The notes under the pieces are model-generated. The model made no database searches and was not told where the DNA came from. It saw only the letters and a program-made list of their open reading frames with translations. The translations under genes and the position numbers were made by a program. Shown one piece after another: positions 7,572 through 62,846 of a stretch of 64,000 nucleotides of DNA; positions within the stretch are counted from its first letter, which is position 1, and each line of letters begins with the position of its first letter. The DNA comes from a virus: the IMG/VR virus record IMGVR_UViG_3300033146_000946, positions 83,062-147,061 of that record, one strand, 5' to 3'.

Positions 7572-7733
7572 ATGAATTTAAGAAAATTAAAATATTTTGG
7601 CAATTTAATAAAAAATAGATTATATTTAAAGAATAAGATTTACTTCGAGTCTACAAAAACTCAACCATCTTTATTTTATAGAAAATGGTTAGAAGTAGAT
7701 TTATCAAACCAACAAGAACTTAATAACCTTTAA
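7572..7733 (+). CDS. 53-aa protein of the MNLR-start group (below the ORF-track cutoff)
   Basis: SD AGGAG; MNLRKLKYFGNLIK...ELNNL* fills the gap between neighbouring genes. Confidence 0.7.
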   Translation: MNLRKLKYFGNLIKNRLYLKNKIYFESTKTQPSLFYRKWLEVDLSNQQELNNL

Positions 7734-7746
7734 CATAGGATAAAAT

Positions 7747-9189
7747 ATGTCCAAAAGAATACTGATTATATCTGATAGTATTTTCAGACAAACAGGTTAT
7801 TCTACAGTTACCAATAATATTATAGAACATTTAAGTAAAGATTTTGAAGTGGCTCAAATGGGACTGGCTCATATGCCAGTCCCTAATTATAATAATACTT
7901 CTATAGATTATTATACTCCAATAATGAGCCATAGTAAATGTTGTGGTAAAGAATTATTAATTGAACATTATAACTCTAAAACTGGTAAAGTAGAATACAT
8001 TACACCTAATGTTGATTTAGATGTAATACAAAATGAATGTAATCGAGGATATCCAAATCAATCAGATCCATTTGGATTTGAATCAGCGTATTATATAATT
8101 GAACATTTTCGTCCAGATATTGTTATACCGATTAATGATATTTGGGGTATTTATAAATTAAACTTTTTAAAGAATAGAAAAAATTTCAAATTAGTACCAT
8201 ATCTTGCTATTGATAGTGAATGTTTTCCTGCTCAAATACAAACTAATGAAAATATAAATACTTTACAATTTTTAAAAATAACTGATAAATTAGTTGTATT
8301 TACTAATTGGGCTAAACATACTATAAATAAAACTTCTGAATTAATAATAGGAACTAAATTTAATAATATTGAAATTATTCCACATGGTGTTAATGCATCT
8401 AAATTTTTTAATTTAAATGCTAGAGATAGATTAATACATGAATTATTTAGATTAGATCCAAATAAAGTATTTATAATAGGTTCAGTTAATAGAAATCAAC
8501 CTAGAAAAAGATTGGATGCTATTTTTCAAATATTAAAAATATTAAAAAATAAATATGAAAAACCAAATGGTAAAAAATTTATGGTTCATTTTCATTGTGC
8601 TATCAAAGATAGTCATGGTTGGGATTTACCTTGGTTAGCTAAATATTATGGTGTAGAAGATAGAGTTATTTTAGATCAAAATTTAAAACCTGGAATAGGT
8701 GTTACTGATGAATTATTAAATATGATTATGAATACATATGATGTACATTTAGTACCAACTAATAGTGAAGGTTGGGGGTTGTCTATTCTTGAAACTATGG
8801 CTGTTGGTATCCCAAATGTAATATCTGATTATTCGGCTCATGGAGATTGGGCTAAAGATTATTCTCTTAAAATAAAATTAGCAGCAAAGATACATGAACC
8901 AATAACAAATCATATTAAAGGTATTATCGATGTAAATCATGCAGCGAAGCAAATATCTTTATTATATAATTCTAAAAAAATGTTAGAGTCATATAAAAAT
9001 AAAAGTATTAAATTAGCAAATAAATTGCAATGGGTAAATGTAGTTGAACAATGGAATATATTATTAAATAATATTGATATAAGTGATTTAAAAGAAAATA
9101 GATATCATGAAGGATATTTTGATGTTTATAATTTAAAACATGTACCAGAAAACCCAATAACTACTGAATTTGAATTACAAGAAATTTAA
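7747..9189 (+). CDS. GT-B (GT4-like) glycosyltransferase
   Basis: TGYSTV, IPHGV, VNRNQPRKR, SEGWGLSILETMAVGIP. Confidence 0.9.
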   Translation: MSKRILIISDSIFRQTGYSTVTNNIIEHLSKDFEVAQMGLAHMPVPNYNNTSIDYYTPIMSHSKCCGKELLIEHYNSKTGKVEYITPNVDLDVIQNECNRGYPNQSDPFGFESAYYIIEHFRPDIVIPINDIWGIYKLNFLKNRKNFKLVPYLAIDSECFPAQIQTNENINTLQFLKITDKLVVFTNWAKHTINKTSELIIGTKFNNIEIIPHGVNASKFFNLNARDRLIHELFRLDPNKVFIIGSVNRNQPRKRLDAIFQILKILKNKYEKPNGKKFMVHFHCAIKDSHGWDLPWLAKYYGVEDRVILDQNLKPGIGVTDELLNMIMNTYDVHLVPTNSEGWGLSILETMAVGIPNVISDYSAHGDWAKDYSLKIKLAAKIHEPITNHIKGIIDVNHAAKQISLLYNSKKMLESYKNKSIKLANKLQWVNVVEQWNILLNNIDISDLKENRYHEGYFDVYNLKHVPENPITTEFELQEI

Positions 9190-9204
9190 AAAAAGGATTG
9201 AATT

Positions 9205-9549
9205 ATGTCAGATAAAAAAATAGTTACTGAAACTAAAATGGAAACAGTTAAAACAGAATTAGAAAGAATGCATCCAGAAGAAGGAGATATTTTTATATTA
9301 AATGTTAATACTGATGATCCCGATATAATATATTCAGAAGAAATTGCTGAAAGTGTAGAACAATTATCAGAAATATTAAAAGATCTAACTGGTATAGATA
9401 TTCCTATTTTAGTATTTGGAACAGAACTAACTATGTCATTAATTAAAAAAGATGATCTTGAAAAATTATTAGATAGTATTGAAATAATTGATGATATAGA
9501 TGAAGAATTAGATAACGACGTAGAAAATATTAAAGATTTATTTAATTAA
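9205..9549 (+). CDS. Acidic hypothetical protein
   Basis: 114-aa ORF within the operon. Confidence 0.7.
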   Translation: MSDKKIVTETKMETVKTELERMHPEEGDIFILNVNTDDPDIIYSEEIAESVEQLSEILKDLTGIDIPILVFGTELTMSLIKKDDLEKLLDSIEIIDDIDEELDNDVENIKDLFN

Positions 9550-9561
9550 AGGATAATTAAA

Positions 9562-10713
9562 ATGAAGATCGTAATTAGAGGATATAAGAACCAAAGTGGA
9601 TTTGGTGTTGCTTTAATTAATTTATTAAAAGTTTTAGATAAATCTAAATATGATTTTAGATTTATCCCATTAAATGCTATACAAGAACAAGATGATTCAT
9701 CATTATCCAATGATACTCAAAACTTTATTAAAAGTATAACAATAAATGAAAATGATTCATTTATTAATGATTCTATATTTATTGATATTGGTTCTTTAAA
9801 TAGAGGTGAAATTTCAATTCGCCCTAAAAATGTAAAAAAATACATTTTATATACTACTACTGAAACAACTAGAATTGATCCATATTATTCAAATATCTTT
9901 AATAAGAAATTCGATGAAATATGGACTGCTAGTAGATTTAATAAAGCAACATTATATTCATCTGGAGTGGAAAAGCCTATTAAAATTTTACCACATGCTA
10001 TTGATACTGATATTTATATTCCTGGTTTACCAGAATATAAGATTACTAATAAAAGGAAATTTAATTTTTTAATTAATATTGATTTTTCTTTTAGAAAAGG
10101 TATACATAAATTATTGCCAGCTTGGTTAGAAGTATTTAATTCTACAGATGATGTTGCATTAATAATGAAATTATCTGAGTTTGATTTTAAAGATTCATCT
10201 AGACCATTAAAAAGTTTAAATAATTTATTATTTCAATTTGAATATACTGAAAAAGATCATGCTCCAATTATAGTTATGAGTGATTTAATTAATGAGAAAT
10301 ATATACCAAATATGTATTCAATTTGTGATGTTTATATTGCTCCAACATTAGGTGAAGGTTTTGGTTTTCCAATAGCTGAAGCTATGTCTTGTGGTAAACC
10401 TACTATTACTAGTGGTTGTTCTGCCCCATTAGATTATGTTACTAATGATAATGGTTTTATTATTGATTTAGATGATACTAAAATGATATCTAAAATAGTA
10501 AACGAAGAAGGTTTATTAATGAGAGATCAAAGATATAAAGATCATTATCTTTATGATATCTCTGTTGAATCTTTATCATATCAATTAGAAGAAGCATATA
10601 ATATGTCAAAAGAAGAATTAATAACTAAAGGAAGTATAGCTCGTAATGATATTATTGATAAATATTCATTACAATCTGTTGTGTCAATATTAACTCAACT
10701 ATTAGAGGAATAA
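9562..10713 (+). CDS. GT-B (GT4-like) glycosyltransferase
   Basis: SGFG, FDEIWTAS, RKG, GEGFGFPIAEAMSCGKP. Confidence 0.9.
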   Translation: MKIVIRGYKNQSGFGVALINLLKVLDKSKYDFRFIPLNAIQEQDDSSLSNDTQNFIKSITINENDSFINDSIFIDIGSLNRGEISIRPKNVKKYILYTTTETTRIDPYYSNIFNKKFDEIWTASRFNKATLYSSGVEKPIKILPHAIDTDIYIPGLPEYKITNKRKFNFLINIDFSFRKGIHKLLPAWLEVFNSTDDVALIMKLSEFDFKDSSRPLKSLNNLLFQFEYTEKDHAPIIVMSDLINEKYIPNMYSICDVYIAPTLGEGFGFPIAEAMSCGKPTITSGCSAPLDYVTNDNGFIIDLDDTKMISKIVNEEGLLMRDQRYKDHYLYDISVESLSYQLEEAYNMSKEELITKGSIARNDIIDKYSLQSVVSILTQLLEE

Positions 10714-10714
10714 A

Positions 10715-21991: not shown

Positions 21992-22357
21992 TTATATTTT
22001 ATGTTTTTGCTGAATTATTTTTTGCTGTATACTACCATTTAATTGTGTGTCTAATTTTAACATTATTTTTTTTAAATTATCTAATTCGTTTTTAATATTA
22101 TTATAATCTTCTTTTAATTTAATATTTTCTTGTAATATTATTTTTAATTCTGCACCTGATAATTCATAATCTGGTTCAAATACAAAATGAGCATTATCAT
22201 TTATATATATTTGTTGAGTATATTCATTATTAAAAGCTGCTATATAACTTGGATTACTAATATATATTGAAGATAATAAATTATCATCTTGAGTTACTCT
22301 AATTTCACCACTTGGTATTATTTGTGAATTATCTATTTGTGGATTTCTAATATTCAT
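21992..22357 (-). CDS. Hypothetical protein with C-terminal coiled coil
   Basis: 121 aa; starts MNIR. Confidence 0.65.
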   Translation of the reverse strand: MNIRNPQIDNSQIIPSGEIRVTQDDNLLSSIYISNPSYIAAFNNEYTQQIYINDNAHFVFEPDYELSGAELKIILQENIKLKEDYNNIKNELDNLKKIMLKLDTQLNGSIQQKIIQQKHKI

Positions 22358-35235: not shown

Positions 35236-35850
35236 CTAATACTTAATTGTTGTATATTCATTTATTTTTCCATCAATTATTTTATTTGTAATTCTTATAT
35301 TACAAGAACCATTGATTATTGTGTAATTTAAAAATCCACTACATGAAAATTGTGATGTTTCTTCTGTTTTATATAAATTAGTAACATCATATTTATCATC
35401 TAATATAAAAAATAAATGATAACCTTGTCTTTTACTAATAGGATTTTTAGAAGAAATAAATAATTTATAATCGATTAATTTATCACCTAATAATTTTTTA
35501 TAAAATTTATATACTAAATCTAATCTATACATATCTGTATCATTAAATTTTTTATTTTTTGCATCTTTTCTTATTATATAATTTAAATTAGAATGATATA
35601 TTTTATTAATATTATCTATATCTAATACAAATAAATTAGTATTTTTTATATCTGTCAATATTCCAAAACTATATGATTTAGTAATTGGACTAATATTATG
35701 ATTAAGTATTTCATCTAATGTAACTTGTTTATATAATCTATATTCACTATATTCATGTTCTATATCATATTGTACTAATGTATAATTATATTTATTTATT
35801 AAATCTAAATGTATATCAGAAACCAACATCGTATTTATCCTCTTTATCAT
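35236..35850 (-). CDS. Prim-pol/AEP-like protein
   Basis: FVLDID, S...GYHLFF, NIRI motifs. Confidence 0.5.
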   Translation of the reverse strand: MIKRINTMLVSDIHLDLINKYNYTLVQYDIEHEYSEYRLYKQVTLDEILNHNISPITKSYSFGILTDIKNTNLFVLDIDNINKIYHSNLNYIIRKDAKNKKFNDTDMYRLDLVYKFYKKLLGDKLIDYKLFISSKNPISKRQGYHLFFILDDKYDVTNLYKTEETSQFSCSGFLNYTIINGSCNIRITNKIIDGKINEYTTIKY

Positions 35851-36406
35851 TATTTAAAATAGATTTATTTTTAACAGATATATATTTTCTAACATAATTT
35901 GACATGAGATTAGTTTCAATACATATCCTATTTAATTTATAATTTTTAATACTTGATTTAGTTATTATATATTGTTTATATTCATGTTCTTCATTATAAT
36001 TTAAATAAAATATATTTAATATATTAATAGGAATACCTTCAGATATTGGTTTAGAACTAATATCTAAATTTGTTACAAATTCTATTTTAACTAATTCATT
36101 AAAATTTAACTTCGATAATTTATCTAATAATTTAGTTTTATCATATGAAATTAATAATGGAACGTTTAATATATAAATATTACTTTTATTAATAACTTTA
36201 TGTCTTAAATTAATTTTACTAACTTTAGTATCTTTTTTAAAATATAAAGTTAGATTGTCGATATTATATCCATTAAATACATTTAAATATGTTGTATTTT
36301 GTGTTCGTTTTAATAATAAACTAACTGGTTCATTTGATTTTTCATTACTATATAATATAAAATTAGGTATACCAATTAATTTTGATATTTCATTTATAAT
36401 AGACAT
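35816..36406 (-). CDS. Hypothetical protein
   Basis: 196-aa ORF within the operon. Confidence 0.6.
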   Translation of the reverse strand: MSIINEISKLIGIPNFILYSNEKSNEPVSLLLKRTQNTTYLNVFNGYNIDNLTLYFKKDTKVSKINLRHKVINKSNIYILNVPLLISYDKTKLLDKLSKLNFNELVKIEFVTNLDISSKPISEGIPINILNIFYLNYNEEHEYKQYIITKSSIKNYKLNRICIETNLMSNYVRKYISVKNKSILNNDKEDKYDVGF

Positions 36407-36408: not shown

Positions 36409-36999
36409 TTAACTCTCAATCAAAGTGTTATAATAATTAGAAATAATTTCCCAATCTTCTTTTAAAATACTAAGTTTATAATTATCATCTTCATATCCAG
36501 TTCTTTTATTATAATAATCAATATTATAAGTTAATATAACTGGTATATCATCATAATTATATACAACTTTACCATGATCCTCTATAATGTTAGGTTTTTG
36601 ATTCATAAATAATTCAGCTGAACTATCATCAAATGTAACTATTAATTTAGGACCAATTATTTCAATTAAATCGTAAAATATTTCTCTTGATTTTTTTATA
36701 GTTTTTCTAGCAGCACCAAAACTTTTAGATGGTTGCGCATAACATATAATATAATTAGTTATATTATATTTATCTAATATTGATATAAAAAATTGTTTCT
36801 CAAAATCAGCATTAAAAAAACCATGATTAGTTATAAATGGAAAAATAAATAATACACAATTATTAAAATTTTTTTTATTACCTTTTATAATTGTAAATTT
36901 ACCTTTACCATTTTGATCTACTTCTAATAATTTTTTATATTTTTCTTTCATTTCATTTAATCTTTGATTAACTGATAAATTACTACTAAACAAATCCAT
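36409..36999 (-). CDS. Uracil-DNA-glycosylase family-4-like fold, probably inactive
   Basis: IEIIGPKLIVTFD..SA, HGKV...IPVILTYN; catalytic GExP and HP absent; start MDLFSS after GGAG. Confidence 0.55.
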   Translation of the reverse strand: MDLFSSNLSVNQRLNEMKEKYKKLLEVDQNGKGKFTIIKGNKKNFNNCVLFIFPFITNHGFFNADFEKQFFISILDKYNITNYIICYAQPSKSFGAARKTIKKSREIFYDLIEIIGPKLIVTFDDSSAELFMNQKPNIIEDHGKVVYNYDDIPVILTYNIDYYNKRTGYEDDNYKLSILKEDWEIISNYYNTLIES

Positions 37000-37306
37000 T
37001 TTCTCTCCATATTTTAAATGCTTTATTAAGATTAACACAATCATTTTTAGTTAACATTATTTCTGATTCATCATTTTCATCAGTTGATTTAACTATATTT
37101 ATTAAATTATCTAAAACATCAACTGTTTTATCCCATAATAATTCACCTATAATTTCGTGTAATGTAGATATTTTAATTGTTACCATTTTATATAGATAAT
37201 AACAATCTATAATAACAACTAAATCATAAATAGTTTTTATCATTTTAATATCGTATCTTGGTGTGTTTATTATAGGTTTATATAATAATTTTCTAAAATT
37301 AATCAT
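36986..37306 (-). CDS. Hypothetical protein (starts MINFRK)
   Basis: ORF within the operon; start overlaps the upstream gene end. Confidence 0.6.
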   Translation of the reverse strand: MINFRKLLYKPIINTPRYDIKMIKTIYDLVVIIDCYYLYKMVTIKISTLHEIIGELLWDKTVDVLDNLINIVKSTDENDESEIMLTKNDCVNLNKAFKIWRENGFV

Positions 37307-37736
37307 TTTTAGTTCCATTTAAAAATTTTGATAGTGCAAGATATTCTCTATAAGTTATATTTTTATAATTTTGTTGTGTTATAAAATAATTATTATTATT
37401 AATATCTATATCATTATAATTAAGTGTAATATTAAATAAATATTTATTAAACATACCTATTATAGCATTATTATTTATAATTGATCTATCATCATTTGAA
37501 TTAGTATGAATTGAATATATTTTATATAATAAATCATTTAATAAATTACTTTCAATTATAAAATAATAATAAGCATAATTATTACAACCATCACAAACTT
37601 TGAATTCAGGTAAATTAATTTTTAAATCATCATAACTTAAAATATAATATTGTATTGTTTGCATAGTAGAATTAAATTTTAAACCACATACATCACAATA
37701 TTTAGATTGTTTTAATTTACCATATCTCAAATTCAT
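37299..37736 (-). CDS. Zn-finger protein of the MNLR-start group
   Basis: MNLRY; CDVC...CDGC. Confidence 0.65.
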   Translation of the reverse strand: MNLRYGKLKQSKYCDVCGLKFNSTMQTIQYYILSYDDLKINLPEFKVCDGCNNYAYYYFIIESNLLNDLLYKIYSIHTNSNDDRSIINNNAIIGMFNKYLFNITLNYNDIDINNNNYFITQQNYKNITYREYLALSKFLNGTKND

Positions 37737-39472
37737 AATCCCATTTCCTTAACAAATTGAGGTTTTTTATTACCAGAATAAGTTATATATAATCGTTCTT
37801 TTGCTCTAGTTATACCTACATAAAATAATCTACGTTCACTTTCAACCACATCAGCAACTCTCTCATCTAATTTCATTTTCCAATTAGCGAAAGGTATAAT
37901 GACCATTTCTGATTCTCCACCTTTAGCACCATGAATAGTTGATAACATTATTTTAGCATCTTCATTTTGTACTTCTTCTTTACCATCTAATCCAAAATTA
38001 TTACATAATTCTTTAATTGAATCAGTTGTTATTTCATAATCTTCAGCGATATCTATTAAAAAATCAGAAATAGCTTGAGGTACATCAAATGATTTAATCA
38101 TATAATCTGGAAAGATTTTTAATAATTCATCTAATGATTTATTTTTTTCAGCTAATTTACAAAATTCACTTTGTAATTTAAAAGCTTGTATCATTCCTCT
38201 TTTAATTTTTTTATTAGCATCAGCTAGTCGAGATACTTGAGAATAAAATGGTTCATCTTCTACAATAACATCGAACATATTTAATTGTGGTGAATCACTT
38301 ATACTTTCAACTATATTATTAGTTTTTTGTTTAATTAATTCAACAGTTGTAGTACCTAATGCTTTCATACCTTTAGCTGCAATTTCTAAATCATAAATAT
38401 CATAATCTTTTGCTGCTATTTTCATAATAGCAATATAAACTCGAAAAGCAGATCTATCAACTAATTCAGTAGAATCATTAACTGTGTAATTTAATCTTGC
38501 TTTTTTTAATTGATATTCTAATTGCATTTTATTAGTTCTATCACGATATAATATTAATATATCTCTATTTCTATTAGTTCTACATAAAGATACTATATAA
38601 TCTATTTCAGATAAAGGATGATTAGTTTGATAGACATGTACTATTCCATCTGTTTTATCATATGCTCTTAAATCTATTTTAGAATGAGTTATATTATGTT
38701 CAATAAGATTTCTTGAATATTTAACTATATTATTTTTAGATCTAAAATTTAATCCTAAATTAACAACATTACATTTAAATAATTTAATAAATTTATCAAC
38801 ATTTCGAGGTTTAGCTCCTCGAAATTCATATATAGCTTGTGACTTATCAGCAACACCAATCATATGAGATTCATAATTATAATATAATTGTTTTAAAAAT
38901 TCTAATTGTGCTAATGATGTATCTTGTAATTCATCAACTAAAATATGTGTATATGTAAATTCAGGTTGTTTTTCTTTAATAAATTCAATACCATTAAAAA
39001 TAATATCATCGAAATCGTACATATTATATTTTTCTAATTCGTTATTATATTGTTCAGTATATTCACATGATCTTTGAGGATAATTAGATTTTGTAATACT
39101 AATTTCATTTTTAATTCTTTCAAATTCAGACTTATCTTTTTTACAATCAAATATTTTTCTTATAATCATATTAGATTTATTTGTATCACAAATATTAAAA
39201 GATATTCCGTTTTGACGCATTAGTCTATAAGCAATTGAATGAAAGGTTCCACCTGAAATTCTATCAGAATTACCAGCTTTATCAATAATATCTTTTGCCG
39301 ATTTATTAGTAAAAGTAATTAATAATACTTTATTATTAGAATTTTGTTGTAATATTAATCTAGCTATTTCTGCAAGTGTTGTACTTTTACCACTTCCAGG
39401 ACCAGCCATAATATATGTATTTTGTTTTAGTGAGCTTTCTATAGCTTCTTGTTGTTCTTTAGTAAATTGCAT
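37733..39472 (-). CDS. uvrD: UvrD/PcrA superfamily 1 helicase
   Basis: AGPGSGKS, TFTNKSA, GTFHS, VDELQD, QAIYEFRGA, NFRS, STIHGAKG, ERRLFYVGITRAK. Confidence 0.95.
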   Translation of the reverse strand: MQFTKEQQEAIESSLKQNTYIMAGPGSGKSTTLAEIARLILQQNSNNKVLLITFTNKSAKDIIDKAGNSDRISGGTFHSIAYRLMRQNGISFNICDTNKSNMIIRKIFDCKKDKSEFERIKNEISITKSNYPQRSCEYTEQYNNELEKYNMYDFDDIIFNGIEFIKEKQPEFTYTHILVDELQDTSLAQLEFLKQLYYNYESHMIGVADKSQAIYEFRGAKPRNVDKFIKLFKCNVVNLGLNFRSKNNIVKYSRNLIEHNITHSKIDLRAYDKTDGIVHVYQTNHPLSEIDYIVSLCRTNRNRDILILYRDRTNKMQLEYQLKKARLNYTVNDSTELVDRSAFRVYIAIMKIAAKDYDIYDLEIAAKGMKALGTTTVELIKQKTNNIVESISDSPQLNMFDVIVEDEPFYSQVSRLADANKKIKRGMIQAFKLQSEFCKLAEKNKSLDELLKIFPDYMIKSFDVPQAISDFLIDIAEDYEITTDSIKELCNNFGLDGKEEVQNEDAKIMLSTIHGAKGGESEMVIIPFANWKMKLDERVADVVESERRLFYVGITRAKERLYITYSGNKKPQFVKEMGL

Positions 39473-39735
39473 TACATTAATCCTATTTTGAGAGAATAAT
39501 CTATTTCATTAATAGTCATATAAATATAAATTATACTATCCTGTTTTTTAACATCAAATTTATTAAAATTAGTATTTTGATGTTTTGTTAATATTATAAT
39601 TACATCATCAATAATATTATTTTTTATATTGTCATCCATATAAAGACCAATATATTTAAACTCTAATAAATCAAATATATCTTTTGATATAGATTTTAAT
39701 AATTCATTTGTTTTTGGTTTTCTTAAATTAATCAT
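39472..39735 (-). CDS. Hypothetical protein (starts MINLRK)
   Basis: 87 aa; coupled to uvrD. Confidence 0.65.
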   Translation of the reverse strand: MINLRKPKTNELLKSISKDIFDLLEFKYIGLYMDDNIKNNIIDDVIIILTKHQNTNFNKFDVKKQDSIIYIYMTINEIDYSLKIGLM

Positions 39736-39880
39736 TTATTTCATCCAAGAATAAAAGTTTATTCAATGTTGTTATATGTTTATTATTTTGTCTTCCAACT
39801 TTAACAGTCCAAATTTGAGTTTTTGTATTATAAGTAATTTTATTATTATTTAATTTATATTTAATCTTTCTTAGATTCAT
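39728..39880 (-). CDS. Small protein (starts MNLRKIKY)
   Basis: Internal ATG at 39880 of ORF 39728..39964. Confidence 0.6.
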   Translation of the reverse strand: MNLRKIKYKLNNNKITYNTKTQIWTVKVGRQNNKHITTLNKLLFLDEIND

Positions 39881-40323: not shown

Positions 40324-40521
40324 CTATACGACAGTTGTATTATGTCTATTAATAAAATCAGCAATACGATTATATGCTTCTTCATTAGTAAGTACATCAT
40401 GATGTAATCGACTAGGTTGTAAAGGTGATAATGTAATTTCACCACAAGGATTTTGTATTATTTTTGTTATTTTTTTTTTTGGTACATAATTTTGTTTATA
40501 TTTTATAAATCTTAAATTCAT
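40324..40521 (-). CDS. Small protein (starts MNLRF)
   Basis: 65 aa; ATGA overlap. Confidence 0.6.
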   Translation of the reverse strand: MNLRFIKYKQNYVPKKKITKIIQNPCGEITLSPLQPSRLHHDVLTNEEAYNRIADFINRHNTTVV

Positions 40522-40835
40522 ATCATATTTACCTTACCATGAATATCTAATTGTCGTTGATGATATAAAGTATGATATTCAGTAATATATTTTGGAATAT
40601 TCACATATTGTAAATCTTCCCGTGGTATAAAAACACATATTCTCCATTTAGAAGATTTATAATGATAATTTTTAGTTAAACCATAATATTTACCATTAGC
40701 ACTAGTTTGTATAATAAAAACTTCTGATGTATCTAATGTTTCATATTTAATTTTTAATGCTTTAATTAAAATATCAAATTCGTTTTTATATCTATTTTTT
40801 ATATTAAAAGTAATAGCTATTAATCTTAAATTCAT
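40518..40835 (-). CDS. Hypothetical protein (starts MNLRL)
   Basis: 105-aa ORF. Confidence 0.65.
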   Translation of the reverse strand: MNLRLIAITFNIKNRYKNEFDILIKALKIKYETLDTSEVFIIQTSANGKYYGLTKNYHYKSSKWRICVFIPREDLQYVNIPKYITEYHTLYHQRQLDIHGKVNMI

Positions 40836-43839: not shown

Positions 43840-44221
43840 TATTTTCTCCATTTGATTTTTGTTTGTTTTTCCATTTTGTATGAGAATCTTCTTGTTGTTG
43901 TCTATGTTCATGCAACATTTTAGAATATTTACTGATTTCATTTTTATTTAGTTCAGTATAATAAATTCTCATAACATATAATTTATCACCAGATAAATCT
44001 AATACATCTGTATCTTTAAAATTAAAAGCGGTTATATAACCTCTTTCATTTTTTCTATCAACAACAACTGTTGTTTCTTCACATTCACCATTAGCGGCTA
44101 ATTGTAATAATTCATCTACTGATGAACATTCAAAAAATAATGTTGATCTTTCGCCAAGATGTTCTTTTGCCATTACTTGTAATGGCTTTGGTAAATTACC
44201 TTTATTTGTGATTTCTTGCAT
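43832..44221 (-). CDS. Hypothetical protein
   Basis: 129 aa; SD AGGAG. Confidence 0.7.
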   Translation of the reverse strand: MQEITNKGNLPKPLQVMAKEHLGERSTLFFECSSVDELLQLAANGECEETTVVVDRKNERGYITAFNFKDTDVLDLSGDKLYVMRIYYTELNKNEISKYSKMLHEHRQQQEDSHTKWKNKQKSNGENNE

Positions 44222-44472
44222 TATTTCTCCTGATATATTATTAGATAACTATAATTGTGATATGTATAATTTTGTAAAGGTTCATTACCTGAATAATCAT
44301 AACCATAATTAATATTATCTAATTGTTGTATTATATCTAATATAATTAATGTATTTTGATAATTGTTAATAAAATTTTTAATATCATCAATACTATAAAA
44401 TATATCAGATAATATAGGTTTATCTAAATTTTGAGCTGTTAGTTTTGGTAATGGAACTCGTCTTAAATTCAT
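44221..44472 (-). CDS. Small protein (starts MNLRR)
   Basis: 83 aa; ATGA overlap. Confidence 0.65.
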   Translation of the reverse strand: MNLRRVPLPKLTAQNLDKPILSDIFYSIDDIKNFINNYQNTLIILDIIQQLDNINYGYDYSGNEPLQNYTYHNYSYLIIYQEK

Positions 44473-46129: not shown

Positions 46130-47869
46130 TTAATCGAAATCTACTTCGAGATTTTTTAAATTAATTTTTTTAGATTTATTTTTTCTTTTAGTTTTTACTT
46201 CAATTGGTTTTTTAGATACATTAACAGCATTATCTTTTGCCCATTTACGCATATTTTGAATATGTTTATCACCAACTTTTACAATTGGTACAACATCTTT
46301 CAATCTTTCAGCAATTGCTTTTGTTGTTATATCAGATTTTGAATTAATCTTTACAATTTTTTTAGATTTACCATTTAATTGTTTAGCAAGATTATATTGA
46401 ATTGCTTCTTTAATAGCATGTTCAATTTCAGCACCTGTATAATCATATATACCACCATTTGAATCAGTATGTCTAATTTCAGCTAGTTCATCTAGATCAA
46501 ACTTTTCAGAATTTCTTCCACGTTTTTCTAAATGAATTTTAAAAATTTCTTTTCTTTCTTCTTTAGAAGGAATATCTGAGAAAAATATATTATCAAATCT
46601 ACCCTTTCTAAGAAGCTCAGGGTGGCTATTTCTAATAGCAGTGATATCATTAGCTGTCGCAATGATAAATACGCCAGGATGAGGCTCCTGCATCCATGTA
46701 AGAAGCGTTCCAATAACACGTTTTGTTGTACCACCATCTGTTTTATCAGAACTACCAGCACCAGCCAAAGATTTATCAAGCTCATCAATAATAACAATAC
46801 CACCAGCTGCTTCTGCTTGTGCTAATGCAAGTCTCATTCTTTTTTCAGATTCACCAACAAGACCAGCAAATACTTTACCTGTATCAAATTTAATTACAGA
46901 CATACCTGATTCTTTAGCCGCTGCTTTAGCAATTGCTGTTTTACCTGAACCTTGAACTCCAAGTAGCATACAACCTTTTGGATGTTCAGCTTTAAAATCA
47001 TTAGCAATTTCAGGATTATCCATAATAGCTTTTTGAACTGTAAACCATTCTTTAAAGTTTTCAAAACCACCTACAGTGTTCAATCCACCTTCACATGGCC
47101 AAAATTCAAGAATATCATTTTTATTAATAATATTTTTCTTTTCTTGAATGATAACATCTTCATCCAAACGTTTCTTTGTTTGTAGAGAATAATTACAAGC
47201 GTTAAAGATTTCATCTTCTGTCAAACCCATACAAGCATTTGCAATTTTATTTAGATCAAAATCAGTATCGATTTTATCTTCATCATTCACAGTTTCTTTA
47301 TTATGAAGTTTCATTAAAGCTGCAATATTTTTAGTAATAATATCATCTTTAATTTCTTCTCGAGTTGGAAGACCAAGTTCAATATATGCTGAATCTTTTT
47401 CAAGTTCAGTTGGTACTTTTAATGCTGGTCCAGAAATAAGTATAGGTGAACCTGCAGTAGCAGCTAAATATACAATATCTCTAATTTTTCTAATAACCAT
47501 AGGATTATTAAAAAACTTATCAGCATCTCTTAAAATATATATATTTCTTTTAAAATCTTCAAAATCATCAGTTAGTTTTGTTTGACAATCATGTTCAATT
47601 ATATCTAATGCTGTAAGAATATTACCGACAGATGATGCACCTTTAACTGTTTTTCTAGCTGAATCAGAATTATAATTATGTGGAGTAACATCTTTATCAT
47701 TATCAGATAATTGATGTAATCCTTGTGTTGCTGACCAGAATTCTACTTTATCATCTTTAAAATTCTTTTTAAGTTCACGGATAAGTTTTGTTTCTTCAAA
47801 AGTATTAACAAATACTAATCCACTATTTGATTCTATTCTATCAAATAGTTCTTGGTAACTGATATGCAT
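46130..47869 (-). CDS. Ycf46-like AAA+ ATPase
   Basis: GVQGSGKT, GLVGESE, IIDELDK, ATAN, PELLRKGRFD, TGAEIE. Confidence 0.9.
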   Translation of the reverse strand: MHISYQELFDRIESNSGLVFVNTFEETKLIRELKKNFKDDKVEFWSATQGLHQLSDNDKDVTPHNYNSDSARKTVKGASSVGNILTALDIIEHDCQTKLTDDFEDFKRNIYILRDADKFFNNPMVIRKIRDIVYLAATAGSPILISGPALKVPTELEKDSAYIELGLPTREEIKDDIITKNIAALMKLHNKETVNDEDKIDTDFDLNKIANACMGLTEDEIFNACNYSLQTKKRLDEDVIIQEKKNIINKNDILEFWPCEGGLNTVGGFENFKEWFTVQKAIMDNPEIANDFKAEHPKGCMLLGVQGSGKTAIAKAAAKESGMSVIKFDTGKVFAGLVGESEKRMRLALAQAEAAGGIVIIDELDKSLAGAGSSDKTDGGTTKRVIGTLLTWMQEPHPGVFIIATANDITAIRNSHPELLRKGRFDNIFFSDIPSKEERKEIFKIHLEKRGRNSEKFDLDELAEIRHTDSNGGIYDYTGAEIEHAIKEAIQYNLAKQLNGKSKKIVKINSKSDITTKAIAERLKDVVPIVKVGDKHIQNMRKWAKDNAVNVSKKPIEVKTKRKNKSKKINLKNLEVDFD

Positions 47870-49928: not shown

Positions 49929-50393
49929 TTAAAAATATTTTGTTCTAGTTTTAATTTCAATATTAATATTTGGTTTTTCATTTTCATTTTCAATAAATTC
50001 AAGTGGATTAGGAATACCACAAGAATCAATATCTAATTCTTTTCTTAACTTAATCAAATAATTAATATTTTGTTTTACAATACTTAATGTATTAGAAGGT
50101 TCTAATGTAAATATATTATTTACAATAGCAGTTTCAATTGAAGTATGATTATTTAATAGTAATTTAAAACTTGTAGTTTTATCTGATACTTCTATATAAA
50201 CATCAAATTTTTTACCTTTAAATTCATCTTTAACATAATCACTAATAACACTTTTTAATTTATTATTAATAGTATCTGTGTCAATTGAAGTTTTTTTTCT
50301 TTGTTCAATAATCTTTTTTCTTTTAACATTAAAGGACTTAATCGTATCAATTAAGTCCTGTGTTTTATTAAGACGAACATTTATATTACCCAT
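49929..50393 (-). CDS. Hypothetical protein
   Basis: 154 aa; SD AAGGA. Confidence 0.7.
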   Translation of the reverse strand: MGNINVRLNKTQDLIDTIKSFNVKRKKIIEQRKKTSIDTDTINNKLKSVISDYVKDEFKGKKFDVYIEVSDKTTSFKLLLNNHTSIETAIVNNIFTLEPSNTLSIVKQNINYLIKLRKELDIDSCGIPNPLEFIENENEKPNINIEIKTRTKYF

Positions 50394-50407: not shown

Positions 50408-50842
50408 CTAAAATGGTAGATCTGAAGCTGATAAATTATTAGTTGATTGAGATTGTTCTGGTTCCTGTTGTCTAACAGAATCTATACCTTTTGATATAGG
50501 TGTTATTCCAGATACAATAATATTTGTATAATATTTATCTGTTTTTTTATCTTTAGTTCTGGATTCATATCCTTCAATTTCAACTATTGTTCCAAGTTGT
50601 ATAGTATTTTTTAAATCATCAACTGCTTGTTGTGTTTTTGCAAATACTGTACATCTTTCAAATAATCTCATTTTAGATTCAGCTGAATCTTTAACTTTTG
50701 TTTCAACATTAAATGATATAATGTATGAACTAAAATCAGAATCAGATTTAGGTGGAATAACTCGTAAAATTTCATCTGAATCATTACTGTTATATTTATA
50801 AAATGGTATAACAGTAGCATTAGTAAGTGTTACTTTTTTCAT
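50408..50842 (-). CDS. ssb: Single-stranded DNA-binding protein
   Basis: OB-fold pattern (G.IVEIEG, YYTNIIV), Q/S-rich tail ending DLPF. Confidence 0.8.
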   Translation of the reverse strand: MKKVTLTNATVIPFYKYNSNDSDEILRVIPPKSDSDFSSYIISFNVETKVKDSAESKMRLFERCTVFAKTQQAVDDLKNTIQLGTIVEIEGYESRTKDKKTDKYYTNIIVSGITPISKGIDSVRQQEPEQSQSTNNLSASDLPF

Positions 50843-52812
50843 TAACTTTCCTCTTTCTTTGTTTGATTGAAAATCATTTTAGGTACAATTGATGTTAAAT
50901 TAGTTATAACATCTGATCCATTTTTACTATTTTTTAATACTTCGCTTTTTAATTCTTTTTTATCAATATTAACATCTGAATATACATTTAATACATTATC
51001 AATATTTTTATTAAAGATTTCTTCTAAATCTTTTTTAGATAAATCATTAAATTTAATAATAGAATCAACTGAATTTAAAATAGTTTTATTTATTACTTGT
51101 TCTAAATTAGAAGTTGATGTAGAATCAGAACCAAAACCAAAACCCATAGCTTTAGTATTAATTGCTTTATTTTCATTTTCTTCTAATGATACAGAAAAAA
51201 TAATAATTGTATTATTTAAACTAACTTCTCTTTCAGCACTATCAATCATTTTACCATTTTTAATACTAGTAAGAAGATATTCAGATATAGATTGGTGACA
51301 TTTATTAATATGTCTCAAGTATAAAATACTTTGTGGATTATTTCTTAAATCTTTAATAAGTTTACCAGACTTTTGATAACCAACATATCCTGGAGGTGCA
51401 CCTTTAAGTTCTGTTAATTGGAACTCTTGAGTATATTGAGCTAAATCATATTCAATAATATTATCTTGTGTACCATAAAGACTTTCTGATAATAATTGAA
51501 CAGATTTAGTTTTACCTACTCCATGACTACCAACTAATAATAAAATACTAATTGGTCTTGTTCTTACAGAATTGATATGTTGCATTATATTACTAACATT
51601 TGCTAATTCTGTTACTGGATCATTTTGATTAACAATTTCTTCGTTCATTTTATCAACAATAGCTTTATAATTCAAACTATTTTTAATATAATTATAATCA
51701 ATATTTCCGATATCAGATATAGCTAAATCAATATGTCTTTTAGTTAAAGTTCTTTTACCTGAAACAGTTTTAGTAGTTTTAATAATATTAATATCTTTAT
51801 CAATATGTAAAAAATCTTTATTACTACTATCATCATATTCATCATGAATATCTTTAATATTCATAATAGAACAAGACTTATCAAGTATATCAAATGACTT
51901 ATCTGGATTCTTTCTATGTCCAAGAAATCTAGATCCATTTTCAACAAGATATTCACATATTTCTTTATTAATAGAACAATTATGATAATCTTCAAAAACA
52001 CTTTTAGTATTATATACCATTTTAATTGTTTCATCAATAGATGGTTCATTAATATTAACTAATGTAAATCTACGTTCTATTGCTTTATCTTCAGTTATAA
52101 TATTATGATATTCATCTACAGTAGTAGCACCAATAAATCTAATTGTACCTGTAAGATATGGTTTAAGAATATCATTAAATTTTTCATTAAGAAGTTGATG
52201 TACTTCGTCAATAAAAAGAATATGTTTTGGATCTTCAGAAGCTTTTTCAAGAATATCTACAATTTTACTAATTGGATCTTCTTTATAATGAGTGAAGAGA
52301 TATGGAATATCTAAATGATGTAGTTTAGCATTTTTAAGTGGAAATGGAACTGTTCCATTTATTAATCTAGTATTAATTTCATTAACAATAGCTGTTTTAC
52401 CAGTACCTGCTTCACCAACTATAATAACACCACGTTTATTTTTTCTAGCTAATGTTATTAGAATTTGTTCAACTTCTTTATCTCGACCAGTTATAATATT
52501 ACCACTATTATAACTTAATTTTTTACAAGCATTAAATTCTTTATAATTTCTTGTAATAGGTGAAAATGAAACTATATTAGTAGTATTCTTTTTAGATATA
52601 TCTTTAAGAATTGTAATAAGATCATCAGTTTTTTTATAAATTCCATCAGGTATTTGAGATATTAATTTCTCATAATTTTTGATATTATATTTTTTTGGTG
52701 TTTTACTTTTTCTTTTAAGTAATTCATAATTTTCTTCTGATGAAAAAATATCATCAGTTTTGTTAGCCAATTTTTTTAATTGGTTTTTAATACTATTAGA
52801 AAGTATCAACAT
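50842..52812 (-). CDS. ClpA/C-like AAA+ unfoldase lacking the Clp N-domain
   Basis: GRDKE, GEAGTGKTAIV, FIDEVH, GATT..EY, ERRF, PDK; second module GSHGVGKT, GAPPGYVGY, MGF loop. Confidence 0.92.
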   Translation of the reverse strand: MLILSNSIKNQLKKLANKTDDIFSSEENYELLKRKSKTPKKYNIKNYEKLISQIPDGIYKKTDDLITILKDISKKNTTNIVSFSPITRNYKEFNACKKLSYNSGNIITGRDKEVEQILITLARKNKRGVIIVGEAGTGKTAIVNEINTRLINGTVPFPLKNAKLHHLDIPYLFTHYKEDPISKIVDILEKASEDPKHILFIDEVHQLLNEKFNDILKPYLTGTIRFIGATTVDEYHNIITEDKAIERRFTLVNINEPSIDETIKMVYNTKSVFEDYHNCSINKEICEYLVENGSRFLGHRKNPDKSFDILDKSCSIMNIKDIHDEYDDSSNKDFLHIDKDINIIKTTKTVSGKRTLTKRHIDLAISDIGNIDYNYIKNSLNYKAIVDKMNEEIVNQNDPVTELANVSNIMQHINSVRTRPISILLLVGSHGVGKTKSVQLLSESLYGTQDNIIEYDLAQYTQEFQLTELKGAPPGYVGYQKSGKLIKDLRNNPQSILYLRHINKCHQSISEYLLTSIKNGKMIDSAEREVSLNNTIIIFSVSLEENENKAINTKAMGFGFGSDSTSTSNLEQVINKTILNSVDSIIKFNDLSKKDLEEIFNKNIDNVLNVYSDVNIDKKELKSEVLKNSKNGSDVITNLTSIVPKMIFNQTKKEES

Positions 52813-53762: not shown

Positions 53763-54035
53763 TTACCTTCTTAAATTAATTCGTTTTTGTTTAGTTTTGA
53801 TTATTGTAACTAATTCATTTATATCATGTTCACCTGAAAATAATGAATCGAATGCTTCAGCATGTTTTTCACATACTGGAATACTATTATAAATAAAACA
53901 ATCTTTATTATTAGATATAATAGTTCTTGTTACATCTATTGAACCAAAATTAAATTGTGCCTTTTCTTCACAGAAAAAGCACGTATGTTTTATAGATGGA
54001 ATATCACCTTCAGTAATATCTATTATAGATTCCAT
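53763..54035 (-). CDS. Zn-finger protein
   Basis: CFFC...VCEKH; ends INLRR. Confidence 0.65.
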   Translation of the reverse strand: MESIIDITEGDIPSIKHTCFFCEEKAQFNFGSIDVTRTIISNNKDCFIYNSIPVCEKHAEAFDSLFSGEHDINELVTIIKTKQKRINLRR

Positions 54036-61579: not shown

Positions 61580-61607
61580 AAAAAATGGGTGAGTAAAAAC
61601 TCACCCA
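61580..61607 (-). terminator. Intrinsic terminator
   Basis: TGGGTGAG-loop-CTCACCCA with U tail on minus. Confidence 0.85.
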
Positions 61608-61609
61608 CC

Positions 61610-61685: not shown

Positions 61686-61686
61686 A

Positions 61687-62061
61687 TTAAAATAATTCTA
61701 TTGTGTATACTTCGTAGATATCATTATTAATATCTATAAATGTTATTTTATCGGAAAATTTCATTATACTAAAATTAATATTATTTTCGTTATCTTTAAC
61801 TATTAATTGTTTAATTATAATATTATTAATTTCAATTTCATTAATTTTAATAATAGTATAACTTTTTCCAATTTGTTTTTTATTCTTCATTCCTCTTAAT
61901 GATATATAATAATCAGTTATTATTATTTCAGATATAGAAGATGAAAGAGGGCGTTGACCACCAAAATTATTGATATCAACGCCATCATAACTTAATACTT
62001 TATATCTATCTTGACCAAATAATATACTAACTAAGAGCAATAAAGATAATATTATTTTCAT
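61687..62061 (-). CDS. Secreted protein with signal peptide
   Basis: MKIILSLLLLVSILFG|Q; SD AAGGAGGT. Confidence 0.75.
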   Translation of the reverse strand: MKIILSLLLLVSILFGQDRYKVLSYDGVDINNFGGQRPLSSSISEIIITDYYISLRGMKNKKQIGKSYTIIKINEIEINNIIIKQLIVKDNENNINFSIMKFSDKITFIDINNDIYEVYTIELF

Positions 62062-62091
62062 AATACCTCCTTTATGCTATTTAGTATAGTA

Positions 62092-62196
62092 TCAATTCCT
62101 GTAATTATTACTCAATTTAAATGACATAATTACAATATTGATTGCGTAAGAAAGTATAGAAAGTACCAGTTTTAATTTAAAGAATACATTTAGCAT
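62092..62196 (-). CDS. 34-aa hydrophobic peptide (not in the ORF track)
   Basis: SD TAAGGAG; MLNVFFKLKLVLSILSYAINIVIMSFKLSNNYRN*. Confidence 0.55.
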   Translation of the reverse strand: MLNVFFKLKLVLSILSYAINIVIMSFKLSNNYRN

Positions 62197-62283
62197 ATAT
62201 TAGCTCCTTATTTAAGTGAACTAATATATAAATAAGATAGTATATATACTAATATGTCGCTGCCGCGACGTTGGTACACTTTA

Positions 62284-62312
62284 AATATATATCATAATTT
62301 AAATATTGTCAA
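62284..62312 (-). promoter_or_regulatory. Sigma70-type promoter
   Basis: TTGACA-N17-TATATT. Confidence 0.75.
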
Positions 62313-62590
62313 GTATTATTTTCAAATTGTTTTACTAAATTTTTATCTCTTATTGCTGTATATTTATTTTCATCTATTAATTTAACTATTATAGCTTTTT
62401 CATTTTCAGTCATTACAAATTTATAATATTTATCAGTTAATTTTATAGGAATAGCTTTATAAAAATTATCCATATTTTTTGTAGTTACATTAAATAATTT
62501 TGATTTATTTTTTTGAATCCAAATAATATCTTCTGGACGTTCAATTTTAGTATTAGTTACTTTATTAATACGTCGTAGATTCATATTCAT
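62309..62590 (-). CDS. Small protein (starts MNMNLRR)
   Basis: 93-aa ORF. Confidence 0.65.
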   Translation of the reverse strand: MNMNLRRINKVTNTKIERPEDIIWIQKNKSKLFNVTTKNMDNFYKAIPIKLTDKYYKFVMTENEKAIIVKLIDENKYTAIRDKNLVKQFENNT

Positions 62591-62846
62591 TCCATTCAGT
62601 TAAATTTTTATAATTTCTAGATTTTAATTCAATTCTAATATTATGTATAATATCAATACATTGATTATAATATATTTTATTAAATTCTGCTATTTCATCT
62701 GAAATAAGATCATTTAAATAACTTAATATTAAAATTAAATCTTCTGTAGAAGCTGTACTTGTATAATATTCTTTTCCATTATAAATAAATTTAAAATCTT
62801 TTGATTTGTTGTTAATTAAATTATATTTTATTTTTCTAAGATTCAT
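62565..62846 (-). CDS. Small protein (starts MNLRKIKY)
   Basis: 93-aa ORF. Confidence 0.65.
   Translation of the reverse strand: MNLRKIKYNLINNKSKDFKFIYNGKEYYTSTASTEDLILILSYLNDLISDEIAEFNKIYYNQCIDIIHNIRIELKSRNYKNLTEWNEYESTTY

What the first reader, a model, noticed from the sequence alone, without database searches (positions are those of the whole stretch)
7572..62846. About ten unrelated small proteins share an N-terminal M(I)NLR tag
Seen: starts at 7572+ (MNLRKLKY), 37736- (MNLRYGK), 39735- (MINLRKPK), 39880- (MNLRKIKY), 40521- (MNLRFIKY), 40835- (MNLRLI), 44472- (MNLRRVP), 62584- (MNLRRINK) and 62846- (MNLRKIKY). Variants occur at 37306- (MINFRKL), 22357- (MNIR), 25529- (MNLK) and RecA 42161- (MSLRK), and a C-terminal INLRR ends ORF 53763. 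Sequences after the tag are unrelated. Leu is encoded by TTA, TTG, CTA and CTT and Arg by AGA and CGA, so the conservation is at the peptide level. ATGA stop-start overlap could explain M-N but not L-R. Inference: a shared short linear motif such as a capsid-packaging signal (cf. the T4 capsid targeting sequence), a degron for the phage Clp/AAA ATPases or Ubl system, or a docking tag for a hub protein.
Basis: partly seen in the sequence, partly recalled or inferred. Interest (0 to 1): 0.82.

Follow-up and report, generated by a model that had tools for sequence, protein, structure and literature searches.

The report
Shared NLR end-tag on phage proteins
About one in five small genes of this uncultured, very AT-rich phage, and of its relatives, start (or sometimes end) with the same four-residue peptide, hydrophobic-Asn-Leu/Ile-Arg. 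Selection keeps it at the protein level, so it is most likely a common address tag, but its reader is still unknown.

Summary
All listed starts exist. The 147-kb genome has 7 MNLR and 2 MINLR starts against 0.35 expected, and NLR is the top terminal tripeptide in an unbiased scan (P 1e-14).

The bodies are unrelated: 32 BLAST families among 38 tagged proteins. The tag uses six Leu, three Ile and both Asn codons. Orthologues only 24-57% identical keep it.

It marks a whole clade (RecA 39% identity or more, GC 25-40%, including two complete 213-230 kb genomes). There it sits 0-5 residues after Met1 or within 12 residues of the C-terminus. Sixteen in-clade metagenome loci carry 31 terminal tags in 322 genes. 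Fourteen out-of-clade loci carry 1 in 287, and the six AT-rich ones have no N-terminal tag.

Conserved bearers include the disordered C-tail of a p97/Cdc48-like tandem AAA ATPase, a 154-aa core protein and a Cas4-like nuclease.

My reading is a terminal short linear motif read by one common partner. The best guess for that partner is the phage's AAA+ machinery (ClpC-like or p97-like).

The scan found the same tag before on other DNA (e1-5376970). I found no published description.

The parts
7572..7733 (+). 53-aa ORF starting MNLRKLKY
   Evidence: first ATG 3 codons after an in-frame stop; AGGAG upstream
37299..37736 (-). 145-aa ORF starting MNLRYGK (Cys-rich, possibly a zinc finger); its start overlaps the UvrD stop (ATGA)
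36986..37306 (-). 106-aa ORF starting MINFRKLL (Phe variant, tag offset by one residue)
39472..39735 (-). 87-aa ORF starting MINLRKPK
39728..39880 (-). 50-aa ORF starting MNLRKIKY. This is the least certain start: an alternative ATG lies at 39964, the start overlaps the upstream gene by 20 nt, and there is no Shine-Dalgarno-like sequence
40324..40521 (-). 65-aa ORF starting MNLRFIKY; its body holds a ribonucleotide-reductase fragment (NPCGEITL)
   Evidence: phrog_367, E 0.002
40518..40835 (-). 105-aa ORF starting MNLRLIAI. Orthologues at 19-75% identity keep MN[LI]R. In the model a helix starts at residue 3
44221..44472 (-). 83-aa ORF starting MNLRRVPL; orthologues at 24-42% identity keep MNLR invariant
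62309..62584 (-). 91-aa ORF starting MNLRRINK (or MNMNLRR from 62590)
62565..62846 (-). 93-aa ORF starting MNLRKIKY
21992..22357 (-). 121-aa ORF starting MNIRNPQI (Ile variant, common in relatives)
49929..50393 (-). Conserved 154-aa core protein starting MGNINVRL. [ILF]-N-V-R is kept near the N-terminus in all relatives, and paralogues in L001 and L002 start (V/M)NIR
53763..54035 (-). 90-aa ORF ending ...KQKRINLRR* (C-terminal copy of the tag, nt 53769-53780)
46130..47869 (-). 579-aa p97/Cdc48-like tandem AAA ATPase. Its disordered C-tail (residues 551-579) carries K-K-I-N-L-K (nt 46154-46165). In more distant relatives the tail reads VNLR, LNLR, INVR or LNIR
35816..36406 (-). Conserved 196-aa protein with an internal K-I-N-L-R-H-K (residues 65-68, nt 36203-36214), kept in orthologues (SINLRH, FNIRR, VNLRR)
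50842..52812 (-). ClpC/ClpE-like double-ring ATPase with a short divergent N-region (1-105), an MGF loop at the position of ClpC's ClpP-docking loop, and a degenerate D2 Walker B. It is a candidate reader only; nothing was shown

Best explanation
What it is. Phi-N-[L/I/V/F]-R is a clade-specific short linear peptide motif. Phi is a hydrophobic residue, and in this genome it is usually Met1 itself. The motif sits next to a protein end and is kept by selection on the protein, not on the DNA or mRNA.

Who carries it. A rapidly changing set of small accessory proteins of unknown function carries it. So do a few conserved proteins: the disordered C-tail of a p97-like AAA ATPase, a 154-aa core protein, a roughly 196-aa protein, and, in relatives, a Cas4-like nuclease and a 220-aa protein encoded near the terminase.

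How it most likely works (inferred). The motif is a common address or docking tag. One reader binds the exposed end, often next to a basic stretch, and so handles many unlike proteins as one group.

I favour the phage's own AAA+ protein-handling machinery: the ClpC-like unfoldase with a ClpP-docking-type loop, and/or the p97-like ATPase. The tag would then recruit adaptors or mark proteins for unfolding or removal. A host protein is equally possible.

Shown: the enrichment, the peptide-level conservation, the clade restriction, the position at protein ends, and the disorder of the AAA tail in a model. Inferred: that a reader exists, and which protein it is. The confidence given (0.5) is for the general claim of a tag read by one common partner.
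For: Enrichment. Over 377 proteins there are 45 N-terminal tags against 0.6 expected, and 9 C-terminal tags against 0.9 expected.

Peptide level:
- Asn uses AAT and AAC at the background ratio. Six Leu codons, three Ile codons and TTT are used.
- Within one orthologue group the tag changes by AAT/AAC, AGA/CGT and Leu-to-Ile.
- In the complete relatives G001 and G002 the tag sits at variable offsets from Met1 (MAINLRK, MSTLNIRK, MSNAVNLR) and at C-termini. This rules out an element at fixed spacing from the start codon.

Retention with turnover:
- Orthologue groups at 24-57% identity keep the tag while the neighbouring residues vary.
- The N-tagged accessory proteins of this genome have no homologues in G001 or G002, which carry other tagged proteins instead.

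Clade restriction: 31 tags in 322 genes of 16 in-clade loci, against 1 in 287 genes of 14 out-of-clade loci (Fisher P 3e-8). The six AT-rich out-of-clade loci (142 genes, GC 0.30 or less) have no N-terminal tag. The distant 190-kb relative G004 has none.

Accessibility: the AAA C-tail has pLDDT 50-68 in an otherwise confident model with mean pLDDT 89.5.

AAA+ context: the ClpC-like ATPase with an MGF loop and the p97-like tandem AAA are conserved throughout the tagged clade.

Established knowledge: recognition signals of AAA+ unfoldases typically lie at either protein end (ssrA, the lambda O N-terminus, the five ClpX signal classes). Cofactors of p97 and Vps4 share short motifs.
Against: - No reader was identified and no binding was shown.
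- No ClpP gene lies in the held 147 kb, although the record is estimated to be only 64% complete.
- In this subclade the AAA tail has K, T or N in place of the otherwise invariant Arg. The tail may therefore be a related motif rather than the same one.
- In the one tagged protein modelled, the tag sits at the tip of a long helix (residues 3-33, first-ten pLDDT 73) and not in a clearly disordered tail.
- Arg in the tag is almost always AGA or CGA (25 of 26 in relatives, 63% expected). A minor nucleotide-level preference therefore also exists.
- The gene calls are heuristic.
Confidence: 0.5

Rival explanations
1. Virion or capsid-targeting signal, like the T4 capsid targeting sequence or encapsulin cargo peptides. 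The tag would bind the prohead interior, scaffold or portal, so that tagged proteins are packed and delivered with the DNA.
For: - The tag is a shared leader on unrelated small proteins, as in T4.
- Encapsulin cargo peptides work at either protein end.
- A 220-aa tagged protein is encoded next to the terminase in three genomes.
- The terminase of relative G002 ends ...SNLNLRRGNF.
- The phage appears to eject large proteins (earlier notes on this genome; not tested here).
Against: - No conserved protease-site residues follow the tag. Positions 5-9 are only weakly patterned.
- The terminase tail motif is absent from the G000 and G001 orthologues.
- The conserved bearers are a p97-like ATPase, a Cas4-like nuclease and replication-module proteins.
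- Most tagged genes lie inside the replication and recombination module.
Confidence: 0.1
2. Recognition motif (degron) for the phage's ubiquitin-like conjugation module: the ThiF-type E1, the 72-aa protein ending in GG, and the 767-aa protein. The Lys-rich flank would serve as the acceptor.
For: - The E1, the GG-ended small protein and the 735-785-aa protein are conserved through the tagged clade.
- Flanks are rich in Lys: N-terminal tags have K at positions 7, 9 and 13-15, and C-terminal tags are preceded by K/R runs.
- Established knowledge: eukaryotic ubiquitin ligases read N- and C-terminal degrons.
- A p97-like ATPase is present.
Against: - The tag-free relative G004 still encodes a ThiF-type E1.
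- No E2 or E3 fold was recognised, and the 767-aa protein could not be modelled or assigned.
- Lys is abundant in these AT-rich proteomes in any case.
Confidence: 0.1
3. Docking motif for a replication or recombination hub, or a nucleic-acid-binding arm. The hub could be a clamp-like factor, SSB, RecA or another ATPase. The invariant Asn and Arg would contact the hub or DNA.
For: - Tagged genes cluster between SSB, RecA, the UvrD helicase and PolB.
- Bearers include a nuclease.
- Established knowledge: clamp- and PCNA-binding motifs sit at either protein end beside basic residues. The Arc and Mnt repressors read DNA with an F-N-L/F-R strand.
Against: - No clamp family was found in the held genome part.
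- The motif does not match QL[SD]LF or PIP consensus sequences.
- No ribbon-helix-helix family hit was found, and the one modelled tagged protein starts with a helix.
- The apparent PolB motif is not conserved.
Confidence: 0.1
4. There is no reader. The tag would be a by-product of helix capping (Met as N-prime, Asn as N-cap, a hydrophobic staple to residue 6), of selection for efficient translation starts, or of shared descent of the 5' ends of genes.
For: - Asn is the commonest second residue genome-wide (30 of 161), which is linked to ATGA stop-start overlaps.
- Position 6 is hydrophobic in 19 of 35 tags.
- The modelled helix begins at residue 3.
- The Arg codon is biased towards NGA.
- Three or four proteins share MNLRKIKY.
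Against: - C-terminal and internal copies exist, and the offset from Met1 varies.
- Arg is invariant, although a positive charge at a helix N-terminus is unfavourable (established knowledge).
- Codons vary at synonymous sites.
- Equally AT-rich unrelated phage loci have no such starts.
- The tag persists while the genes that carry it turn over.
Confidence: 0.07

Closest known systems
Terminal recognition signals and tethering peptides of AAA+ unfoldases (ssrA tag, lambda O N-terminal signal, the N- and C-terminal ClpX signal classes, the SspB C-terminal XB peptide)
   Same: Both are very short peptides at either protein end on unrelated proteins. A ClpC-like unfoldase with a ClpP-docking-type loop is encoded by every member of the tagged clade examined.
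   Different: The sequence Phi-N-L-R matches none of the described classes. The unfoldase here is phage-encoded. No binding or degradation was shown.
Cofactor motifs of p97/Cdc48 and Vps4 (VIM, VBM, SHP box; MIM motifs at ESCRT-III C-termini; the disordered p97 C-tail bound by PUB/PUL domains)
   Same: Many unlike proteins share a short motif that plugs into one AAA machine. The phage has a p97-like tandem AAA whose own disordered C-tail carries the motif.
   Different: The phage ATPase lacks a p97-type N-domain. The direction of reading is unknown: the tail may be a bearer, not a reader. There is no sequence similarity to these motifs.
T4 capsid targeting sequence of internal proteins IPI-III and Alt
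   Same: Both are short N-terminal leaders shared by unrelated phage proteins.
   Different: The T4 sequence is about 10 residues long and ends in the prohead-protease site L/I-x-E. It is only N-terminal and marks virion proteins. Here the core is 4 residues with no cleavage motif, it also occurs at C-termini, and its bearers are replication-module proteins.
Earlier finding of this scan, e1-5376970 ([I/L/M]-N-L-R at the very start or end of unrelated proteins in uncultivated 200-kb phages)
   Same: It is the same four-residue motif, with the same start-or-end placement and the same conclusion of protein-level selection. The 213-230 kb relatives I analysed may belong to the same group; I could not check this.
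   Different: This genome belongs to a more AT-rich subclade in which Met1 itself serves as the hydrophobic residue and C-terminal copies are rare.

Membership tests
T4-type capsid targeting sequence | Short N-terminal leader shared by otherwise unrelated proteins | tested here: met
T4-type capsid targeting sequence | The leader ends in a prohead-protease cleavage motif (L/I-x-E in T4) | tested here: not met
   Positions 5-9 show only weak K/L/R and hydrophobic preferences and no conserved acidic residue
T4-type capsid targeting sequence | Exclusively N-terminal, on proteins found in the virion | tested here: not met
   C-terminal and internal copies exist. Presence in the virion cannot be tested with these tools
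AAA+ unfoldase recognition or tethering signal | Located at an exposed N- or C-terminus | tested here: met
   45 N-terminal and 9 C-terminal copies, with internal copies at background level. The AAA tail is disordered in the model. One N-terminal tag sits at a helix tip
AAA+ unfoldase recognition or tethering signal | A cognate unfoldase is present in the same system | tested here: met
   ClpC/ClpE-like ATPase, E 4e-68 to ClpC, with an MGF loop. p97-like tandem AAA. Both are conserved in the clade
AAA+ unfoldase recognition or tethering signal | The tag is necessary and sufficient for binding to, or processing by, the unfoldase | not testable with these tools
   This needs binding and stability assays
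Sliding-clamp binding motif (QL[SD]LF, PIP box) | Match to the consensus, and a clamp in the system | tested here: not met
   Phi-N-L-R-x-Phi does not fit the consensus: position 5 is K, R or N in about half of the tags. No beta-clamp, PCNA or gp45 family was found in the held 147 kb, but the record is incomplete
Ribbon-helix-helix repressors (Arc/Mnt F-N-L/F-R strand) | N-terminal beta-strand followed by two helices; family profile match | tested here: not met
   No ribbon-helix-helix or Arc hit even at E up to 5. The modelled tagged protein has a helix from residue 3
One paralogous gene family | Detectable similarity beyond the shared end | tested here: not met
   32 BLASTP families among 38 tagged proteins; lengths range from 50 to 199 aa. 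Remote homology was not tested by profile or fold for most of them

The most novel reading that the evidence does not exclude
Phi-N-L-R is the address label of a virus-encoded protein-handling pathway. The pathway would consist of a p97/Cdc48-like ATPase, a ClpC-like unfoldase and a ubiquitin-like conjugation set. A clade of large phages would use it to recruit, remodel or remove dozens of its own fast-evolving accessory proteins, or host targets bound by them. That would make it a phage counterpart of degron-based proteostasis, with a degron defined by the phage itself.
Probability: 0.2. Interest if true: 0.85.

Novelty: new variant of a known kind. Interest (0 to 1): 0.62.

Why it matters
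Short shared end-tags are how cells and a few model phages sort, dock or destroy groups of unlike proteins. This tag marks about a fifth of the small, fast-evolving genes of unknown function in a widespread clade of large uncultured phages. It also marks a p97-like ATPase and a nuclease.

Finding its reader would assign a common pathway to dozens of orphan genes at once. It could also reveal a phage-run protein-handling system.

In practice the tag is a simple sequence marker for start-codon annotation and for picking candidate host-takeover or regulated proteins in this clade.

Tried and rejected
Complex prediction. I ran complex prediction with the ClpC-like ATPase (residues 1-340) and the tagged 105-aa protein. 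The verdict was 'no answer' (score 0.00). This is no evidence either way.

Leads that did not hold:
- ClpS-like adaptor encoded next to the Clp gene: rejected. The 144-aa neighbour is an SSB ending in DLPF.
- ClpP gene: none in the held 147 kb.
- Clamp families: none found.
- Ribbon-helix-helix idea, based on the Arc/Mnt FNLR strand: no support.
- PolB N-terminal TNLR: not conserved.
- NLR in the terminase C-tail: present only in G002.
- UvrD LNFRS: this is helicase motif III, not a tag.
- RecA MSLRK and the MNLK start: not kept in relatives.
- AAA tail docking onto its own protein: not seen in the model.

Phylogenetic profiling:
- The tag-free relative G004 shares only 20 genes with this genome, which leaves 56 candidate readers.
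- ThiF is present in G004. DUF2997 is present in G003, where only a 21-kb locus was checked for tags and it had none. Neither gene tracks the tag.

Searches that gave nothing useful:
- Profile searches of the 137-aa and 200-aa neighbours against PDB sequences.
- ESM Atlas search for the 767-aa protein.
- Foldseek search for the tagged 105-aa protein.
- Literature searches for MNLR, DUF2997 and capsid targeting sequence.
- Searches with single sequences: RecA found no relative in the viral contig collection, and the 105-aa tagged protein found only two close homologues in the protein collection.

Full report
**Setting.** The window is bases 83,062-147,061 of a 147,061-bp virus record. GC is about 23-25% and CheckV estimates the record to be 64% complete. 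The window holds the replication and recombination module of a large tailed phage:
- primase-helicase, ligase and family-B polymerase, plus a ribonucleotide reductase split by a LAGLIDADG gene;
- SSB and an exonuclease;
- RecA and a UvrD helicase (its orthologues);
- a ClpC-like ATPase, a second AAA ATPase, DUF2997, a ThiF-type E1 and a 767-aa protein.

**Check of the observation.** In 7 of the 9 core cases the ATG is the first possible start, 0-6 codons after an in-frame stop. The exceptions are 39880 and 62584, which have alternative ATGs.
- In a heuristic call of 161 genes for the whole genome, 7 start MNLR and 2 start MINLR. The expectation is 0.35 from position-specific frequencies. None of 20,000 column shuffles reached 7. 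Internal NLR is at background (9 against 10.6).
- At the DNA level, ATGAAYYTNMGA occurs 9 times in the window against 1.03 expected, and 8 of these are ORF starts.
- An unbiased scan of all tripeptides at protein ends puts NLR first, with P 1e-14.
- Including the 50-aa ORF at 39728-39880, which my gene call dropped, 13 of about 60 small genes (160 aa or less) in the window carry the tag.

**Unrelated bodies.** With the first 10 residues removed, 38 tagged proteins from this genome and six related loci form 32 BLASTP families. None matches PHROGs or Pfam convincingly. One 65-aa tagged ORF contains a ribonucleotide-reductase fragment.

**Relatives.** The RecA-like protein has metagenomic relatives at 40-82% identity. 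Their contigs show the same gene order. They again carry many small genes that start MN[L/I/F]R, mostly between RecA and the UvrD helicase and just after the helicase.
- More distant members have both N-terminal tags and C-terminal ones, such as ...RRLNLRG*...RTINLRRR*...SSLNLRS* and ...HRINLRGD*.
- Two complete 230-kb and 213-kb genomes with terminal repeats (G001, G002) have 9 and 6 N-terminal tags and 4 C-terminal tags each, against expectations below 0.6. In these genomes the tag lies 0-5 residues after Met1 (MAINLRK, MSTLNIRK, MSNAVNLR).
- A distant 190-kb relative (G004) has none, and no other tripeptide stands out at its protein ends.
- Among 30 metagenome loci of 5 kb or more, found with a RecA profile, 16 share the conserved module. 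These hold 31 terminal tags in 322 genes. The other 14 hold 1 in 287 (Fisher P 3e-8). Six of those 14 are equally AT-rich (GC 0.30 or less, 142 genes) and have no N-terminal tag.
- AT-richness therefore does not create the pattern. It is a trait of one clade.

**Protein level or nucleic-acid level.** Codons in the tag follow the background synonymous usage. The AAT:AAC ratio is 19:7 against a background of 0.78:0.22. Six Leu codons, three Ile codons and TTT all occur. Inside single orthologue groups the tag differs by AAT/AAC, AGA/CGT and Leu/Ile, while the surrounding residues diverge.
- The variable offset from Met1 and the C-terminal copies exclude an element tied to the start codon.
- One nucleotide-level bias remains: Arg is AGA or CGA in 25 of 26 tags in relatives, where 63% is expected. 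This fits the usual preference for A-rich gene starts.

**Retention and turnover.** Orthologues at 24-57% identity keep the tag. In contrast, the N-tagged accessory proteins of this genome have no homologues in G001 or G002, which carry other tagged proteins. Some orthologues have lost or altered the tag:
- the Cas4-like nuclease is tagged in G001 and G002 but not here;
- variants ICLR, VQLR and LKIR occur.

**Conserved bearers.**
1. The 579-aa AAA ATPase. Its model (pLDDT 89.5) is a tandem AAA fold closest to p97/Cdc48/Rix7 (Foldseek E about 1e-20), with a degenerate first module. Its C-tail (residues 551-579, pLDDT 50-68) reads basic run, then Phi-N-Phi-R, then an acidic-hydrophobic end in distant relatives (KVNLRTDDIVI, KLNLRTDDVNI, NINVRNLNL). 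In this subclade it reads KINL[K/T/N]. More distant bacterial-type homologues lack this tail.
2. A 154-aa core protein with [I/L/F]-N-V-R at residues 3-9, and paralogues that start (V/M)NIR.
3. A roughly 196-aa protein with an internal, conserved Phi-N-Phi-R-[H/R].
4. A 220-aa protein encoded near the terminase: MSNAVNLR, MTVNLR, and MSKDTNLRK in this genome. Its G004 orthologue is untagged.

**Shape of the motif.** After M-N-[L/I/F]-R, position 5 is K, L, R, F or Y in 25 of 35 tags. Position 6 is usually I, L, V or M, and positions 7 and 9 are often K. C-terminal copies are preceded by K/R runs. In the one tagged protein modelled (pLDDT 78.8), a 31-residue helix starts at residue 3, so the tag sits at its tip.

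**Interpretation.** The data fit a short linear motif near a protein end that one partner reads. The partner is unknown.
- Signals at either protein end are the rule for AAA+ unfoldases.
- The clade always encodes a ClpC/ClpE-like ATPase (E 4e-68 to ClpC). It has an MGF loop where ClpC has its ClpP-docking loop, a degenerate D2 Walker B and a short divergent N-region. The clade also always encodes the p97-like ATPase.
- I therefore rank an AAA+ recruitment or removal tag first. This step is inference only.
- A ubiquitin-like route, a virion-targeting signal, a replisome or DNA hub, and a reader-free structural or translational cause are the rivals. The last is the least compatible with the C-terminal copies, the invariant Arg and the AT-rich controls.

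**What failed.** The single complex prediction allowed (ClpC-like residues 1-340 with a tagged protein) gave no answer. Profile, fold and literature searches gave no lead.

**Novelty.** I found no published description. The scan has already reported the same motif, at starts or ends of proteins, in uncultivated 200-kb phages (e1-5376970). This window extends it to a more AT-rich subclade and adds four things: the conserved bearers, the p97-like fold of the tail-bearing ATPase, the clade boundary, and the AT-rich controls.

Noticed in passing
window 40324-40521 (-): The 65-aa tagged ORF contains a ribonucleotide-reductase active-site fragment (NPCGEITL; phrog_367, E 0.002). It lies 20 kb from the real, split reductase gene. 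It may be a remnant of a homing event or a decoy.
   Followed up: no
window 18805-21918 (-): The ribonucleotide reductase is split into 369-aa and 300-aa parts by a LAGLIDADG endonuclease gene (19734-20660). Relatives carry inteins in the AAA ATPase (939-1060 aa forms), the terminase (984 aa in G002) and PolB.
   Followed up: partly
window 46130-47869 (-): The 'Ycf46-like' AAA ATPase folds as a p97/Cdc48/Rix7-like tandem AAA with a degenerate first module. Across the clade it is always followed by a 137-aa protein (phrog_20456) and DUF2997. In one relative (L009) DUF2997 ends in GG; in this genome and in L008 it ends in a single Gly.
   Followed up: partly
window 50842-52812 (-): The ClpC/ClpE-like ATPase has LRHINKCH in place of the D2 Walker B DEIEKAH, but keeps GYVG and an MGF loop. 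No ClpP gene lies in the held part of the genome.
   Followed up: partly
window 36409-36999 (-): A conserved 196-aa protein starts MDLFSS in all relatives (MDLFSSGL, MDLFMSSM, MLDLFSQG). This resembles a beta-clamp-binding QL[SD]LF-type end motif and could be a second terminal motif in the same module.
   Followed up: no
window 50408-50842 (-): The 144-aa SSB-like protein ends in ...SASDLPF, the classical SSB C-terminal tip. Orthologues end in DELPF or DDDLPF.
   Followed up: no
window 44469-45071 (-): A conserved 200-aa protein has a P-loop-like PGxGSTS and an IVIDTAD Walker-B-like motif. It may be a small RecA/DnaB-type ATPase. It has no PDB or Pfam match.
   Followed up: partly
tags in L001-L006 and G000: Arg in the tag is encoded almost only by AGA or CGA (25 of 26 in relatives, against 63% expected), while the other tag codons follow the background usage.
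   Followed up: partly
L009:8513-9131 and G001:37043-37777: Several proteins end in ...ICLR[Y/Q/H]. At least the G001 protein is an orthologue of one ending in ...LNLR. A Cys variant of the same end-tag therefore seems to exist.
   Followed up: no
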